Source: Candidatus Absconditabacterales bacterium (GTDB lineage Bacteria; Patescibacteriota; Gracilibacteria; Absconditabacterales; Absconditicoccaceae). From it: a stretch of 64,000 nucleotides of DNA. The number at the start of each line of letters is the position of its first letter. The first letter of the stretch is position 1. The notes below the pieces were generated by a model. That model searched no databases, was not told the DNA's origin, and saw nothing but the letters and a program-made list of their open reading frames with translations. Both the position numbers and the translations under genes were made by a program. Where the stretch lies: positions 45,105 through 109,104 of the forward strand of contig JBDHUW010000005.1 of assembly GCA_039809345.1 (NCBI GenBank), read 5' to 3'. Shown here one piece after another: positions 1 through 64,000 of the stretch.

Positions 1-878
1 TTGGCTATTTCTTGGATTTTTGCTCATGTGTTTCAATCTATTTTTGAAAAGTCTCCTTGTATATCTCAGATACTATTTAGCGTTGTTAATATTCTTACTT
101 TATTTTCAATATCCAATTCTTTATTTCCAGTTGATAATTTTTTATTCATTCACTCAATTATTTTTCAATATAGACAGAAAAATATATTATTCAGTCTTCT
201 GTTTTCTCATGGGTCTAGTGCTTCATCTACCTTTTTTAGAATATTGTTTCAAAGTTCATTTAATCCGTTTGCTCAATTTCATCTCATTTTTTCAAATCCG
301 CGCAATTTTTCAATTATCTGTCCTCTAATTCCATTTTTTAATTTTTCTCATCATTTTTCCATAATTTCTCACAGTGATGTATTTTTTTCATTCAAAACAT
401 CCTGTAGTTTTTTATATTCAGGTTTATTTATTCCATCAATCTTTTTCCCCAATTCTGTTTTTGCCTTAGATGAGTTTTCTATTTTGTTGTTGTTTTTTTC
501 AGGAGTTTGTTGTTTTTTTTCACTTGCTACTTTTTCTGCTTTTAGAGTATTGAGAAATGTTTTTACGTCCTCGCGAATTTTATTTTCGGGAATTGCTACT
601 TGAGGAATTTTTAGATTGCTGTTAGATATCTTCAATTCTTTGATTCCTGGATGGGGTATGGTGCTTGATTTTAGATAAGTATCGATATTAGATATTATCG
701 TGTTTAGAAATACTGGATAATTTTTATTTGTTTCAAAAAATCATTCTAGGTTAATTTCCTTTTTGGTAATTCTTTCAACTGTTTTACTAATGTCGTTGGC
801 TTCTTTTTGGTCAACGATGTCGTCTTCGAGTGCATTGATAGATTGTAGTACTTCATCATGTTTCGCAACTTCTCCCAT
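1..878 (-). CDS. hypothetical Lys/Glu-rich coiled-coil protein (3' end runs off the window)
   Basis: ATG at 878-876 on the minus strand. I translated codon by codon to nt 1 and found no TAA/TAG, only in-frame TGA. The listed fragment 369..635 is in the same frame. No recognisable domain. Confidence 0.5.
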
Positions 879-886
879 CTAAATTT

Positions 887-1168
887 TTATATAGTTGATA
901 AAAGTGACTCTGCTTTTTCTCTTTCTCCAATTTGTTCTTCTAATTCGATATTTTTTAATATTTCCATTCTCTCGGCAATTTTTTTCATGCTTTCCTTTGT
1001 TTCGTTATTTTTGCTGTATACTGCCATTTCCTTCAACAACTGTATGATTCAGTTTACTGCAGTATTATCCAAAACCCCAAGCAAGATGAACTTTCTTAGG
1101 TCTTTTGCGAGTTTCCACTGTTTTTCTAGCTTTTCAAGCATTTTTAGTACAAAATCTTTTTTAGTCAT
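887..1168 (-). CDS. hypothetical small protein (93 aa)
   Basis: Open from ATG (1168) to TAA (889-887) with one in-frame TGA. Translation MTKKDFVLKMLEKLEKQWKLAKDL... Lies directly upstream of the previous gene on the same strand. Confidence 0.4.
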
Positions 1169-1327
1169 GAGTATATTATAGCCATTTTCTTATGAATCTC
1201 TCTGTTTTTTGAATTACCTTGTTTGCTTTTACAAAGCTTACGGGGACATATCTCAATTTTGGTGTATAATATGTGTTTTTCTGTTGCAATTTGTGTCTAC
1301 TTTTGTATATTCTCTTTTCTATTCTGT

Positions 1328-1399
1328 GCCTTTGTAGTTCAACGGATAGAATAGGCCCGTCCTAAGGGTTAGATGCAGGTTCGATTCCTGCCGAGGGCA
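1328..1399 (+). tRNA. tRNA-Arg (anticodon CCU)
   Basis: Hand-folded cloverleaf: acceptor GCCTTTG/CGAGGGC, D-arm GTTC-AACGGATA-GAAT, anticodon stem GGCCC/GGGTT with loop GTCCTAA, T-arm GCAGG-TTCGATT-CCTGC. CCA is not encoded. Confidence 0.85.
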
Positions 1400-1491
1400 G
1401 GATACAGAATTACGGAATACTGACGTTTGAGGAATATGGGAGTTGTGTCTCATCTCTACGCCAACCATTTTATTTATTATTTTATTACACC

Positions 1492-59917: not shown

Positions 59918-59953
59918 CACGTAAATCAAAAAATGTCAATTATATAATATGAG

Positions 59954-59981
59954 AAAATGAGTCGTCTGGCTCATTTTTTTT
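59954..59981 (+). terminator. rho-independent terminator after the NlpC/P60 gene
   Basis: AAAATGAG-tcgtctgg-CTCATTTT running into a T-tract. Confidence 0.5.
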
Positions 59982-60037
59982 GGTGCAGAGAAAGAGTGAT
60001 ATATACTATATATAATTTATTATTTCCCATACATGAG

Positions 60038-63000
60038 ATGGCGCCAAATGCATTACAACCTCTTGATCCAAGAGAGCTACAGCAGTTTAATGAGACGCTA
60101 AAGAACATTAGCAAAATCACTAAAAAGGTTGTTGATCCTACTGCCAATAGTCTACTTGCACTTTTTGAAAGCGATGTTTTCGCTGAAAAGAATAAGGAGA
60201 CTGTTGAAGGCTTATCCACTATGATTGAGCATATGGAAAGGTTGAAGAAGTCATATGGGGCAAAAAAGGCACCTAAATATTTTGACACTATTGATCAAGA
60301 CATATCACTTGCTACAGAAAGATTGAAAAATCTAGAGCAGATCTTGTGAGCATGAAAAAGCGAAGCTGTGTTGGATGGTGCATGAAAGGTGTCTATCGAC
60401 TCACTCTTTGTAGAAACTACAAGCACACTCAAAAGAGGAGCAGTAGAGGTGAAGCCAGATGGGGCTACGCTCTGAACTACGCCAGTAGTAATTTCTTGAG
60501 CAACTGAAGCGGGATGAATTACAACATATGCGTGTAAAGCTGGAGATAGTGAATTTACGATAAAATATGAATGAGATCAAATCATCATTGATCCAAAAGA
60601 AATTCTTTTGCGTGGTGCATTGAATATCAGTATGGTGGGTGTGTATGGGACAGAAAAGAATGGCAAGATAGTTTCTCGTGTATGAGCGAGAAGAGAAGTG
60701 ACATTCAAACTTGATGACGCATTCAGGCAGGCATATGAGAAGGCAGAATTTGATTCTAAGAAAGTAATTATAAAAAAATACGACGATTGATTGAACAATG
60801 CTTCTAGCAAAGCATGTATTTCTCTTTATGAACAAGATAGTGAACATCTATGAAATGCGTTCGATGCAGTGTTTTCAAATCATCCGGATATGAAAGACTA
60901 TCGGGCCAATCTCACTCAAGAACAAAAAAGATTATTTATTGAAAAACTTCTTCGTGAAAAACAACCAGCTTACAGCCATGCTACACTCTATGGACAAGCG
61001 ACTATGCAAGATCAATGGTACAAAGCTATGGTCAATACATTGACTGAAAAATGACTTTCTGGTGACAACCAAATATGAAAATATGTGATTGATCTCTACA
61101 AAGACAAAGATGGACAAAAAGCTATAGCTGCTAAAATGTGAGAGGGGCTAGAATCAAATGTTTCTGCTGGTGTTGATTCATCAGTAGTGGCTGATCTCAA
61201 AAAGTTTTATGTGGATTATGCGAATGAAAATGTAGATGAATTTGATATCTGGTACAATAAACTTGAACATGATCAGACTGCTGATTTTGTCAATCTGGAA
61301 GCTATCTTCAAAAATAAATGATTTGAAGCAATGCAACATGCATTCTTCAATACTATGGAAACAGATCAATATGTACAACAAGAACTTAGAAATGGTAATC
61401 AAGTATGGAATGATTTGTCAAAATCAGATCAAGAGCGCTTCTATGCTCAAATGGTCTTTCAAAATGATTGTCCGAATGAGTTTGTAAAATGGCAAAAGAT
61501 AGCATATATCCCACAACTACATTATGGTAATGTATTGAAGACTCGTGAATTCTTTTCGTTGTACAAAGATGAGATTAAAAAGATTTATACAGAGCAATGA
61601 TCAAACTCATGGTGAGCTATCAAAGCATTGTTGATTTCAAAAATAGACTCAGATGCTATCAAAGATATGATGCAAAAAAGTATCAAATCTACATTACAAG
61701 ATCATGCTTCAAACAATATCAATGGTGCACAAACCAATCTCTTGAATGAACTCAATAAGATGACGTCGTGAGATGTGTCATATGTCCAACAACCGCTTCC
61801 AGGTGATGCTGTAGCAACGTGAGCAGATGTTGCGATTCCTGATGCAAATACAAATGACAATGAAGAGTGATTCCAATTCAGACAAGAAAATGGAGAGATT
61901 CGCGCTACGATCTCAAATGTAGAGCGTGTATACAGAGAAAAAGCAGAACATGAAGCAGAAGAACTATTGAGAAAACAATATGAGGCGCTGTGAGATTTTG
62001 GATTCAATGTAGATACGGTAAAAACTGCTCCAAAGAGATTATGGATGTATTTATTCAGATGACATAGAAGAGATAAAGCAGTCAAAAGAGTTATGGAAAC
62101 ATACAAGAGACAGTGAGCTGATCTATTGAATGAAGAAGTGACAAGTACTGCTGATCGTCATGAGAAAGAAAATATATATTTGCGTACAGCTAATGGGAAC
62201 AATGATGTAGATCCTGTAATCGTAGGTATTGAGGATCAAGCAGTGACGGATTTGTGTAAGCAATATATGACACCTACTGCCACAGGTGGCAACTCTATGA
62301 AAGATGCACAATTTGAGCAAAGATTTAATGTATTAGTAAAAGCAAATCCCAGATTGAATGCAGCTATTGAGACAAATAATATGAACCATATAGCTTCTAA
62401 CTTATTGTTGAAATTGAGAAATCAGAGAGAGTATAGAATCATGATTAATGGCATTTCAAAACAATTAGAGTCCCTGATCGCAGGAACTCAAACAAATGCA
62501 GCGTATGAATCGGCTGTTCGTGCTATCATAGAAAATTACGTAAACAAATCACATCAAGCTATGTGACCAAATATTCAGAAACTCATGCAAGCACCGCTGA
62601 ATAAAGAAAAATATGCAAAATTTATTCAACATGAAAAAGCAATACTCTTTGGTGAGATGCAAAACATGAAGATTAAGCTTGATGTATTGGATAAAGGGAA
62701 ATGAGCACACGAGATAGAAAATTCTGATAGAATGGGAAACCCTTTTGCTAGAGTGGGTATGTTTTTTGATAAATATCCAGTGTGGGCAATAGGTACTTGA
62801 GTAGCTGCTACTGTAGGTGCTACACTTTTAGCATGACCTGTATGAGCATTTGTAGTATGATGAACTAAGGCTGCCATCTTCCTCTGATCGAGAAAGGCAG
62901 CACATATGACAAAGGAGCAAATGTGACAAGAGAAGCGCTTTACGAGAGATATAGAATGACAGCAAGCTAGACTCGCATCTCTTAGAAACACAATGAATCA

Positions 63001-64000
63001 TGCTAAATGACGATTTACAAGATATAAAGCAAGACGCCAAGTAAAGCTCTATATGGATACTACTCAGCATGAAGACTTAGTAAATATCAAGACAGTAATT
63101 TCTACATTACAAAATTCTATGTTGACAAATGATGTTATGCTTCAAACACAATTGGGAGATGCACTGGCAAGAGTGGACTACTACAAAGAATCATGACACA
63201 ACTTCCTGTGAAATACAAACGAGCGTGATTTGGAGCGCGATATGAATGCATTGCAGTCACTCATAGTTTCCCATGTGCAACAGTACCATGGTTGAGATAT
63301 GGATGCAATTAGACAGACTCCAGAATATACTACAAAGAGAAATGATTTGGATGCATTGTATTCAAACAAGACTGCAACGTTCAAGAAACAAAGATCTCGA
63401 TTAACTTTCAAATATGCAGCTGCAGGAGCAGGTATGTCAGCGATTATAGCATGATTACATCATCGAATGTCGGATGGCATCGAAAATGCTACAGGTACAT
63501 GAGGTGGAGATTGATCATCAATTACTACTCATACATTGCATAGTAATATCAAGAACTGATTTAGTATGTCAGATGCAGAGGTGCAAAAGTTGCAAACCTA
63601 TTTTGCTACAGACCCATCTGCTCAAGCACAAACTCCAAATCCAAAAGCATTTTGGACTGCACTTCATGAAGTCAAAGTCACTGAATGATGAATGTCGGAG
63701 TCAGATTTCGCATGACTAAAAAATAAATTTATGGAAAATCTTGCTCGATGAATGCAGGAAAATGGATGATTTGAAATATTTGATAATGCAAAGAATATTG
63801 CGCTTTCTGCAAATGCAGATTATAATAAGGCGCTTGATTTTATGGTGCGTCATGGATTGTGTGAGAGAAGTGATGGCCCTGCCATTTTGCAACACCTCAA
63901 TGAAATTAAAACATGAGCCCTTACAACAGGGAACATCCAGAATATCGATCCTTCGATGAGGGCAAAGATGGCGGAATACTGTTATATGTTTTTAGCAAAA
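60038..64000 (+). CDS. giant coiled-coil/Gly-zipper membrane protein 4 (at least 1321 aa, 3' end beyond the window)
   Basis: Same frame as the four upstream ORFs (fragments 60869, 61331 and 62126 in frame). Hydrophobic Gly-rich helices around 62.75-62.9 kb (VWAIGT-G-VAATVGATLLA-G-PV-G-AFVV-G-G-TKAAIFL). Still open at nt 64000. Confidence 0.7.

What the first reader, a model, noticed from the sequence alone, without database searches (positions are those of the whole stretch)
1..64000. The whole window is written in genetic code 25 (UGA = Gly)
Standard-code ORFs are short fragments, yet fragments of the same gene share one frame and are joined by TGA. TGA falls exactly on invariant glycines:
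- S15 TGSPEVQ (1549-1551)
- Gmk P-loop GxSGAGK (6179-6181, 6188-6190)
- MoxR Walker A G-AP-G-T-G-KT
- RluA DKDTS-G-VL and T-G-RxHQIR
- MnmA -G-LS-G-G-VDS
- DEAD-box ATP-G-RL and AAR-G-L
- Na/Pi GANI-G-TT

Trp is still encoded by TGG, and only TAA/TAG terminate the native-coded genes. In MnmA, about half of all glycines are TGA. This points to Gracilibacteria or Absconditabacteria (SR1). Any annotation made with table 11 or table 4 would be wrong.
Basis: partly seen in the sequence, partly recalled or inferred. Interest (0 to 1): 0.6.

Follow-up and report, generated by a model that had tools for sequence, protein, structure and literature searches.

The report
UGA=Gly genome, also CGA/CGG=Trp
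[quoted passage not shown] It also reads the arginine codons CGA and CGG as tryptophan, so table 25 mistranslates it too; both changes are already described in the literature.

Summary
With TGA read as sense, non-overlapping ORFs cover 96% of the window, and 30 ORFs reach 300 aa. Table 11 and the TAA-sense and TAG-sense controls each give only 1.

TGA aligns to Gly in 32 of 58 positions against solved structures. Genome-wide it aligns to Gly in 1611 of 3259 positions against two standard-code genomes, and to Trp once.

The 1.15 Mb genome has a 74-nt tRNA(UCA) with glycine identity elements (G1-C72, C2-G71, G3-C70, U73). It has one release factor, RF1 (PAT motif), and no prfB.

- CGA aligns to Trp 57 times and to Arg 6 times out of 283.
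- In a same-family genome, our CGA pairs with TGG in 82 of 155 positions and our CGG with TGG in 14 of 26.
- The tRNA(UCG) in the window (35800-35873) and a tRNA(CCG) elsewhere carry Trp features (A1-U72, G73, U20). The true Arg tRNAs carry A20.

This matches the Absconditabacteria code variant of Shulgina & Eddy (2021). One gene, adk (47897-48541), looks written in the standard code. The biology is known and the genome is a new member, so interest is low to moderate.

The parts
1..64000 (.). Coding sequence on both strands in which TGA is a sense codon (Gly), TAA and TAG are the only stops, and CGA/CGG mean Trp
   Evidence: ORF statistics. TGA aligns to Gly. CGA/CGG align to Trp.
35800..35873 (+). 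tRNA with anticodon UCG, labelled Arg by ARAGORN but carrying Trp-type identity: A1-U72, G73, U20 and acceptor stem AGGGCGU (tRNA-Trp(CCA) has AGGGCCU). It is the inferred decoder of CGA, and of CGG by wobble, as Trp.
   Evidence: Homologues with the same features occur in 9 of 16 same-family genomes. The identity rules are taken from PMC8629427.
29860..29934 (+). tRNA-Arg(GCG) with A73 and A20. It reads only CGU/CGC, so CGA is left to the UCG tRNA. The genome has no tRNA-Arg(ACG).
1327..1400 (+). tRNA-Arg(CCU), an ordinary Arg tRNA with A20
1492..1752 (+). rpsO (ribosomal protein S15). TGA at 1549-1551 is the invariant Gly of the GSPEVQ motif.
6131..6742 (+). Guanylate kinase. TGA at 6179-6181 and 6188-6190 supply two P-loop glycines.
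7113..8174 (+). MoxR-type AAA ATPase. The Walker A motif gAPgTgKT at 7386-7409 has three TGA.
9017..10396 (-). RluA/RluD-family pseudouridine synthase, with TGA in DKDTSgVL and TgRMHQIR
33886..34986 (+). FtsW/RodA, with 26 in-frame TGA. In the PDB alignment, 9 of 25 aligned TGA fall on Gly of FtsW.
40604..42226 (-). Na/Pi cotransporter. TGA lies in GANIgTT (41939-41959), and a CGA/CGG codon lies 10 codons later in TPwLVA.
43746..45569 (-). DEAD-box helicase, with TGA in ATPgRL and AARgL. 5 of 6 aligned TGA fall on Gly.
46754..47803 (-). MnmA, with 17 TGA and 17 GGN codons. 13 of 17 TGA align to Gly of solved MnmA structures.
47897..48541 (+). Exception: an adk copy that looks written in the standard code. 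None of its 14 Gly codons is TGA. CGA/CGG sit on the conserved Arg of GFPRT and of K-R-L. TGA sits at the natural stop (48467-48469) and is followed by 24 more sense codons.
23766..24770 (-). Lipoprotein gene with 30 GGN and no TGA. A 62%-identical orthologue in the same synteny in another metagenome is also TGA-free, so this is conserved avoidance rather than a different code.

Best explanation
The window lies in a 1.15 Mb, 36% GC, RF2-less genome of the Gracilibacteria/Absconditabacteria radiation. Its genetic code differs from the standard code at three codons.

1. UGA is read as glycine by a dedicated tRNA-Gly(UCA). The tRNA lies outside the window, at genome contig C4:88060-88133. Termination is left to RF1 at UAA and UAG. 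UGA is the commonest Gly codon, at 49% of all Gly codons.

2. and 3. CGA and CGG are read as tryptophan. The decoders are a tRNA(UCG) inside the window at 35800-35873 and a tRNA(CCG) at C1:145820-145890. Both have tRNA-Trp identity elements and lack the A20 of Arg tRNAs. Arginine keeps CGU/CGC, read by tRNA-Arg(GCG), and AGA/AGG.

Shown here: the codon-to-residue correspondences, the tRNA genes and their features, and the absence of prfB.

Inferred, not shown: that GlyRS charges the UCA tRNA and TrpRS charges the UCG and CCG tRNAs, and that decoding is unambiguous.

The correct description is therefore table 25 plus CGA/CGG = Trp, not plain table 25.
For: UGA = Gly:
- PDB alignments give 32 of 58 TGA on Gly and none on Trp; GGN codons give 71% and the background is 8%.
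- A genome-wide tally against two standard-code genomes gives TGA n=3259 with Gly 1611 and Trp 1. GGN codons score 50-60% Gly. The log-likelihood margin over the next-best residue is 2995.
- Codon by codon against a same-family genome, our TGA pairs with GGN in 1051 of 1658 positions and with TGA in 144.
- Glycine content is 7.0% with TGA counted and 3.6% without it. Trp would be 4.2% if TGA meant Trp.
- The tRNA(UCA) is 74 nt with G1-C72, C2-G71, G3-C70 and U73, the same as both tRNA-Gly genes.
- There is a single class-I release factor. It has the PAT and GGQ motifs and scores 401 bits on the prfA model against 211 on prfB.
- Four standard-code genomes each have both release factors. All 23 same-family genomes, this one included, lack prfB.

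CGA/CGG = Trp:
- CGA n=283: Trp 57, Phe+Tyr 54, Arg 6. CGT n=1026: Arg 451, Trp 0.
- The log-likelihood is best for Trp, by 103 over the second residue and 374 over Arg. CGG beats Arg by 56.
- In the same-family genome, our CGA pairs with TGG in 82 of 155 positions and our CGG in 14 of 26. Our TGG pairs with their CGA 22 times and CGG 19 times. No Arg codon appears among the top partners.
- The same interchange is seen in named MAG loci that match the window's pheS region.
- The pattern matches PMC8629427 and PMC13092985.
Against: - There is no protein-level evidence. Everything rests on comparative sequence analysis.
- The CGG sample against distant references is small (n=63), and Trp and Tyr are nearly tied there.
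- CGA aligns to Trp less often (20%) than TGG does (33%). This could reflect younger, less conserved positions or some ambiguity.
- The adk gene in the window uses CGA/CGG at conserved Arg positions, where a 75%-identical relative has AGA and CGT. A strict CGA = Trp reading makes that copy catalytically dead, which is unexplained.
- My gene set is a greedy ORF set, not a trained gene caller. It included at least two spurious ORFs: 1443-1757 in the window and one inside 23S rRNA.
Confidence: 0.9

Rival explanations
1. Plain NCBI table 25: UGA = Gly and every other codon standard, with CGA/CGG = Arg.
For: UGA = Gly is fully supported. ARAGORN labels the UCG and CCG tRNAs as Arg by their anticodons. 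The adk gene uses CGA/CGG at conserved Arg positions.
Against: - CGA aligns to Arg in only 6 of 283 positions, against 44-47% for CGT and AGA.
- CGA/CGG interchange with TGG in relatives and never with Arg codons.
- The UCG and CCG tRNAs lack A20 and have A1-U72 and G73, like tRNA-Trp.
Confidence: 0.03
2. Ambiguous or incomplete reassignment: CGA/CGG are mostly read as Trp but partly still as Arg, or depend on context. Genes such as adk could then still yield some active protein.
For: - adk has CGA/CGG on the invariant GFPRT Arg and two other conserved Arg positions, yet its frame is intact.
- CGA matches Trp less often than TGG does.
- Shulgina & Eddy note that ambiguity cannot be excluded without experiments.
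Against: - No tRNA with Arg identity that could read CGA or CGG was found. tRNA-Arg(GCG) reads only CGU/CGC.
- Two other native-coded ADK-family genes exist, so the window's adk need not be functional.
Confidence: 0.06
3. Table 4 (UGA = Trp), as in Mycoplasmatales and several insect endosymbionts.
For: The genome is small, AT-rich and lacks RF2, and TGA is a sense codon.
Against: - TGA aligns to Trp in 1 of 3259 positions and to Gly in 1611.
- The UCA tRNA has U73 and G1-C72, C2-G71, G3-C70 (Gly type), not A1-U72 and G73.
- Trp content would be 4.2%.
Confidence: 0.003
4. Standard code with massive pseudogenisation, sequencing error or selenocysteine at UGA.
For: ARAGORN calls the UCA tRNA 'SeC'.
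Against: - There are 11,701 in-frame TGA in the ORF set, at 3.4% of codons.
- The frames are full-length Pfam families.
- The tRNA is 74 nt with an ordinary short variable arm, not the long-arm SeC type.
- TGA positions are Gly in homologues.
Confidence: 0.002

Closest known systems
NCBI translation table 25 (Candidate Division SR1 / Gracilibacteria code; Campbell et al. 2013, Rinke et al. 2013, as cited in PMC8629427 and PMC13695967)
   Same: UGA = Gly. The tRNA-Gly(UCA) has G1-C72, C2-G71, G3-C70 and U73. prfB is lost and RF1 is kept. The genome is small and low in GC.
   Different: Table 25 keeps CGA/CGG as Arg, whereas this genome reads them as Trp. UGA is not a rare codon here: it is the most used Gly codon, at 49%.
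Absconditabacteria variant code with CGA and CGG = Trp on top of UGA = Gly (Shulgina & Eddy 2021, eLife, PMC8629427)
   Same: - The same three reassignments.
- tRNA(UCG) and tRNA(CCG) with G73, no A20 and N1:U72.
- tRNA-Arg(GCG) instead of ACG.
- GC of 0.36, within their 0.26-0.38 range.
- CGA at 30 and CGG at 7 per 10,000 aligned codons, close to their reported values.
   Different: Clade membership could not be settled. The nearest named PheS loci are labelled 'Candidatus Peribacteria' or 'Gracilibacteria' (66-68% identity). Those labelled Absconditabacterales are more distant (41-57%). In the genome library, the other RF2-less families are listed only as 'same class', not as the same family.
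CGG = Trp in Anaerococcus and in the RFN20 Bacilli clade (Onthovivens in PMC13092985) (PMC8629427, PMC13092985)
   Same: An Arg-to-Trp sense-codon reassignment in a low-GC genome, using a tRNA(CCG) with Trp identity.
   Different: Those lineages keep CGA = Arg through tRNA-Arg(ICG) and lack tRNA(UCG). Here CGA is the main reassigned codon.
Table 4 (Mycoplasmatales and others, UGA = Trp)
   Same: UGA is a sense codon and RF2 is lost.
   Different: The amino acid is Gly, not Trp.

Membership tests
NCBI table 25 (UGA = Gly) | In-frame UGA falls on conserved glycines of orthologues from standard-code organisms | tested here: met
   32 of 58 against PDB. 1611 of 3259 genome-wide. TGA pairs with GGN in a relative.
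NCBI table 25 (UGA = Gly) | tRNA with anticodon UCA and glycine identity (G1-C72, C2-G71, G3-C70, U73) | tested here: met
   C4:88060-88133, 74 nt. All four elements are present and identical to tRNA-Gly(GCC) and tRNA-Gly(UCC).
NCBI table 25 (UGA = Gly) | Release factor 2 (prfB) lost and RF1 kept | tested here: met
   One class-I release factor with the PAT motif, scoring 401 bits on prfA and 211 on prfB. The genome is 99.6% complete. Control genomes have both factors.
NCBI table 25 (UGA = Gly) | All other 63 codons keep their standard meaning | tested here: not met
   CGA and CGG behave as Trp. No other codon deviated in the 64-codon tally.
UGA = Gly plus CGA/CGG = Trp variant (Shulgina & Eddy 2021) | CGA aligns to Trp, not Arg | tested here: met
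   Trp 57 and Arg 6 of 283. Log-likelihood margin of 374 over Arg. Pairs with TGG in 82 of 155 positions in a relative.
UGA = Gly plus CGA/CGG = Trp variant (Shulgina & Eddy 2021) | CGG aligns to Trp, not Arg | tested here: met
   Pairs with TGG in 14 of 26 positions in the same-family genome. The distant tally clearly excludes Arg (2 of 63), but Trp and Tyr are nearly tied there.
UGA = Gly plus CGA/CGG = Trp variant (Shulgina & Eddy 2021) | tRNA(UCG) and tRNA(CCG) with G73 and no A20, with A/G1:U72 as supporting evidence | tested here: met
   Both have A1-U72, G73 and U20. The Arg tRNAs CCU, GCG and UCU have A20. Relatives show the same features.
UGA = Gly plus CGA/CGG = Trp variant (Shulgina & Eddy 2021) | tRNA-Arg(GCG) replaces tRNA-Arg(ACG) | tested here: met
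UGA = Gly plus CGA/CGG = Trp variant (Shulgina & Eddy 2021) | Phylogenetic membership in Absconditabacteria (SR1) | tested here: inconclusive
   Only PheS identities and record labels were available.
UGA = Gly plus CGA/CGG = Trp variant (Shulgina & Eddy 2021) | Actual aminoacylation of the tRNAs and the residues incorporated in proteins | not testable with these tools
   Needs biochemistry or proteomics.
NCBI table 4 (UGA = Trp) | UGA falls on conserved Trp, and tRNA-Trp(UCA) is present | tested here: not met
   Trp in 1 of 3259 positions. The UCA tRNA is of Gly type.

The most novel reading that the evidence does not exclude
The CGA/CGG-to-Trp reassignment may be ancestral to a whole RF2-less family of at least 16 genera. 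That family's public relatives are filed as 'Peribacteria' or 'Gracilibacteria' rather than Absconditabacteria. If so, the three-codon variant code is broader and older than the clade for which it was described. Genes such as the window's adk, written in standard-code style, would then record recent gene flow across a genetic-code barrier.
Probability: 0.3. Interest if true: 0.5.

Novelty: new member of a known kind. Interest (0 to 1): 0.3.

Why it matters
The practical consequence is for annotation.
- Table 11 shatters nearly every gene in this genome.
- Table 4 puts Trp at about half of all glycines.
- Table 25, the 'correct' public table, still writes Arg at about a third of the tryptophan positions. 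In the window that is 103 CGA/CGG codons against 184 TGG.
- No NCBI table that I know of covers the three-codon variant. That statement rests on my own knowledge, not on a tool result.

For biology, the genome is one more well-assembled example (99.6% complete) of stacked reassignments, one stop-to-sense and two sense-to-sense. It has the full tRNA and release-factor machinery on hand.

It also shows two usable side effects:
- Highly expressed genes avoid UGA-Gly.
- At least one resident gene carries standard-code signatures.

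Tried and rejected
- My first greedy ORF set picked a spurious 104-aa frame (1443-1757) over the true 86-aa S15 frame, so Pfam found nothing there. I corrected this. With TGA as sense, long spurious ORFs are common, so ORF length alone is unreliable.
- Translating locus L002 from its first base gave the wrong gene, because the locus has flanks. I redid this from genome.fa.
- Whole-length identity between tRNAs did not discriminate isotypes; all values were 0.63-0.68. 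Only the identity positions were informative.
- The first distant tally gave 16 CGA-to-Arg matches. Ten of them came from a conserved spurious ORF inside the 23S rRNA gene (C4:122053-122370) and were removed.
- The four PDB alignments held only one CGA codon, so they could not test CGA. I therefore fetched two standard-code genomes and one relative.
- A BLAST search with the tRNA(UCG) found nothing in the other RF2-less families. It is therefore open whether those families share the Trp-type tRNA.
- The class-level prfB scan could not name the order or decide between Absconditabacterales and BD1-5.
- I considered whether the TGA-free lipoprotein gene is a recent standard-code import. I rejected this because a 62% orthologue in the same synteny is also TGA-free, and because EF-Tu, EF-G and an SLH surface protein show the same avoidance.

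Full report
**Observation.** The window is 36% GC.
- Under table 11 it holds a single ORF of at least 300 aa.
- Reading TGA as sense gives 30 such ORFs.
- The matched controls, TAG as sense or TAA as sense, give one each. The effect is therefore specific to TGA and is not a by-product of removing a stop codon.
- A non-overlapping ORF set with TAA/TAG stops covers 96% of the window.
- Pfam recognises these frames as full-length S15, S1, CorA, Gmk, MoxR, two RluA-type synthases, SecD, RuvC, a type IIG restriction-modification enzyme, MazF, PheS, FtsW/RodA, a DEAD-box helicase, MnmA, Adk and a Na/Pi cotransporter, among others.

**What UGA means.**
- I translated four genes with TGA as X and aligned them to solved structures from standard-code organisms. 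TGA falls on Gly at 32 of 58 positions and on Trp at none. The window's own GGN codons fall on Gly at 71%, and the column background is 8%.
- For a genome-wide test I laid out the whole 1.146 Mb assembly. I fetched two standard-code genomes reached through the PheS loci: a Buchnera chromosome and a 660 kb stretch of a Marinimicrobia contig. I then tallied, for each of the 64 codons, the residue aligned to it, with TGA, CGA and CGG masked in the query.
- TGA (n=3259) aligns to Gly 1611 times and to Trp once. That matches the GGN codons, which score 50-60% Gly. The log-likelihood margin is 2995 over the next residue.
- Against 400 kb of a complete same-family genome, our TGA pairs with GGN at 1051 of 1658 positions and with TGA at 144.
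- TGA makes up 3.4% of codons and 49% of Gly codons. Without it the proteome would be 3.6% Gly. If it meant Trp, the proteome would be 4.2% Trp.

**Machinery.**
- The genome has a 74-nt tRNA with anticodon UCA (C4:88060-88133), which ARAGORN mislabels as SeC. Its acceptor stem (G1-C72, C2-G71, G3-C70) and discriminator U73 are those of the two ordinary tRNA-Gly genes. tRNA-Trp(CCA) instead has A1-U72 and G73.
- There is one class-I release factor gene. It scores 401 bits on the prfA model and 211 on prfB, and it carries the RF1 tripeptide PAT as well as GGQ.
- The four standard-code genomes I used each have both factors.
- All 23 genomes of the same family in the genome library, this one included, lack prfB. 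By contrast, 145 of 201 genomes of the same class have it.

- In the 64-codon tally, two sense codons deviate. CGA (n=283 after removing an artefact) aligns to Trp 57 times, to Phe or Tyr 54 times and to Arg 6 times. That is the profile of TGG (Trp 197, Phe+Tyr 131 of 602). It is not the profile of CGT (Arg 451, Trp 0 of 1026) or AGA.
- Likelihoods favour Trp by 103 over the runner-up and by 374 over Arg. CGG (n=63) excludes Arg by 56 but cannot separate Trp from Tyr.
- The close-relative comparison is sharper. Our CGA pairs with their TGG at 82 of 155 positions, with CGA at 14 and with CGG at 12. Our CGG pairs with TGG at 14 of 26. Our TGG pairs with their CGA 22 times and CGG 19 times. No Arg codon is among the frequent partners.
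- The same interchange appears in public, named MAG loci that match the window's own pheS region. In none of those loci does our CGA or CGG face an Arg codon.
- The tRNA genes agree. The window's 'tRNA-Arg(UCG)' at 35800-35873 and the tRNA(CCG) on contig C1 have A1-U72, G73 and U20. The UCG tRNA's acceptor stem matches tRNA-Trp(CCA) at six of seven pairs.
- The three real Arg tRNAs (CCU, GCG, UCU) all have A20.
- tRNA-Arg carries GCG rather than ACG, so nothing with Arg identity reads CGA.
- Homologous UCG tRNAs with the same features occur in 9 of 16 same-family genomes tested.

**Comparison with what is known.**
- UGA = Gly is table 25 (Campbell 2013 and Rinke 2013, as cited in PMC8629427 and PMC13695967).
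- The added CGA/CGG = Trp reassignment is what Shulgina & Eddy (2021, PMC8629427) inferred with Codetta for Absconditabacteria. They used the same tRNA criteria (G73, no A20, N1:U72), found the same tRNA-Arg(GCG) arrangement and a similar GC range, and reported similar rarity of the codons. PMC13092985 restates this.
- The genome is therefore a member of a described kind.
- I could not fix its clade. The nearest named PheS loci (66-68%) are labelled 'Candidatus Peribacteria' or 'Gracilibacteria', yet all carry in-frame TGA. Loci labelled Absconditabacterales are at 41-57%.
- The gTranslate paper notes that taxonomic labels and code tables disagree for exactly these lineages.

**Exceptions inside the window.**
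- The adk gene (47897-48541) has 14 Gly codons, all GGN. It has TGA where Adk homologues end, and five CGA/CGG codons. Two of them sit on conserved Arg residues of the solved Adk (the invariant Arg of GFPRT, and the Arg of K-R-L), and a third sits where the relative described below encodes Arg.
- A 75%-identical relative in the same gene neighbourhood has AGA, CGT, GGA and AGA at the four CGA/CGG positions of the aligned core, and it has a TAA stop.
- Two further ADK-family genes with in-frame TGA exist elsewhere in the genome. The window's copy is therefore dispensable, and it reads like a gene shaped under the standard code. I leave its origin open.
- The TGA-free lipoprotein gene (23766-24770) is different. 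Its 62% orthologue sits in the same RuvC and AP-endonuclease synteny and is also TGA-free.
- Genome-wide, 30 of 813 genes are improbably poor in TGA. They include EF-Tu (0 of 37 Gly), EF-G (6 of 58) and an SLH surface protein (1 of 94). This points to avoidance of UGA-Gly in highly expressed genes, not to foreign origin.

**Verdict.** The label 'code 25' is incomplete, because CGA and CGG are Trp codons here. Both facts are in the literature. Novelty is therefore limited to a new, nearly complete member and possibly a wider distribution of the variant.

Noticed in passing
window 47897-48541: The adk copy has standard-code signatures. It has no TGA-Gly, carries CGA/CGG on conserved Arg positions (including the invariant Arg of GFPRT), and has TGA at the natural stop followed by a 24-codon hydrophobic extension. 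A 75% relative has AGA/CGT at those Arg positions and a TAA stop. Two native-coded ADK-family genes lie elsewhere (C4:50506-50949 and C3:90987-91532).
   Followed up: partly
window 23766-24770 (minus strand); locus L154:1032-2039: A lipoprotein gene with 30 Gly codons and no TGA. Its 62% orthologue in another metagenome, in the same synteny with RuvC and an AP endonuclease, has 27 Gly codons and no TGA. The avoidance is therefore conserved and is not a sign of recent import.
   Followed up: partly
whole genome (outside the window), e.g. C1:164498-165670 (EF-Tu), C10:33755-35857 (EF-G), C1:148228-151752 (SLH surface protein): 30 of 813 genes use far fewer TGA-Gly codons than the genome mean of 49%. 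Several of them are classic highly expressed genes, which suggests that UGA-Gly decoding is slower or less accurate than GGN decoding.
   Followed up: partly
window 1443-1757 versus 1492-1752: With TGA as sense, a spurious 104-aa ORF in another frame is longer than the true 86-aa S15 gene that it overlaps. Longest-ORF gene calling fails in this code.
   Followed up: yes
genome C4:122053-122370 (outside the window): A conserved ORF inside the 23S rRNA gene matches equally spurious ORFs in the reference genomes. It produced false CGA-to-Arg counts.
   Followed up: yes
window 48632-64000: Four co-directional giant ORFs (1170, 1012, 1157 and more than 1348 aa), each with 43-46 TGA and no Pfam match, surround a 401-aa NlpC/P60 protein.
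   Followed up: no
window 24960-29771: A small island holds a 992-aa type IIG restriction-modification enzyme (Eco57I/MmeI-like), a MazF/PemK toxin and a weak Bro-N domain ORF. All contain in-frame TGA, so all are native-coded. The island ends at tRNA-Arg(GCG).
   Followed up: no
genome C2:88579-88967 (outside the window): A tmRNA with the tag AEKNNLRINAFNFSPAYAA. The tRNA genes for Gly, the UCA tRNA and the UCG tRNA do not encode their 3' CCA, whereas tRNA-Trp, Cys, Ser and Arg(GCG) do.
   Followed up: no
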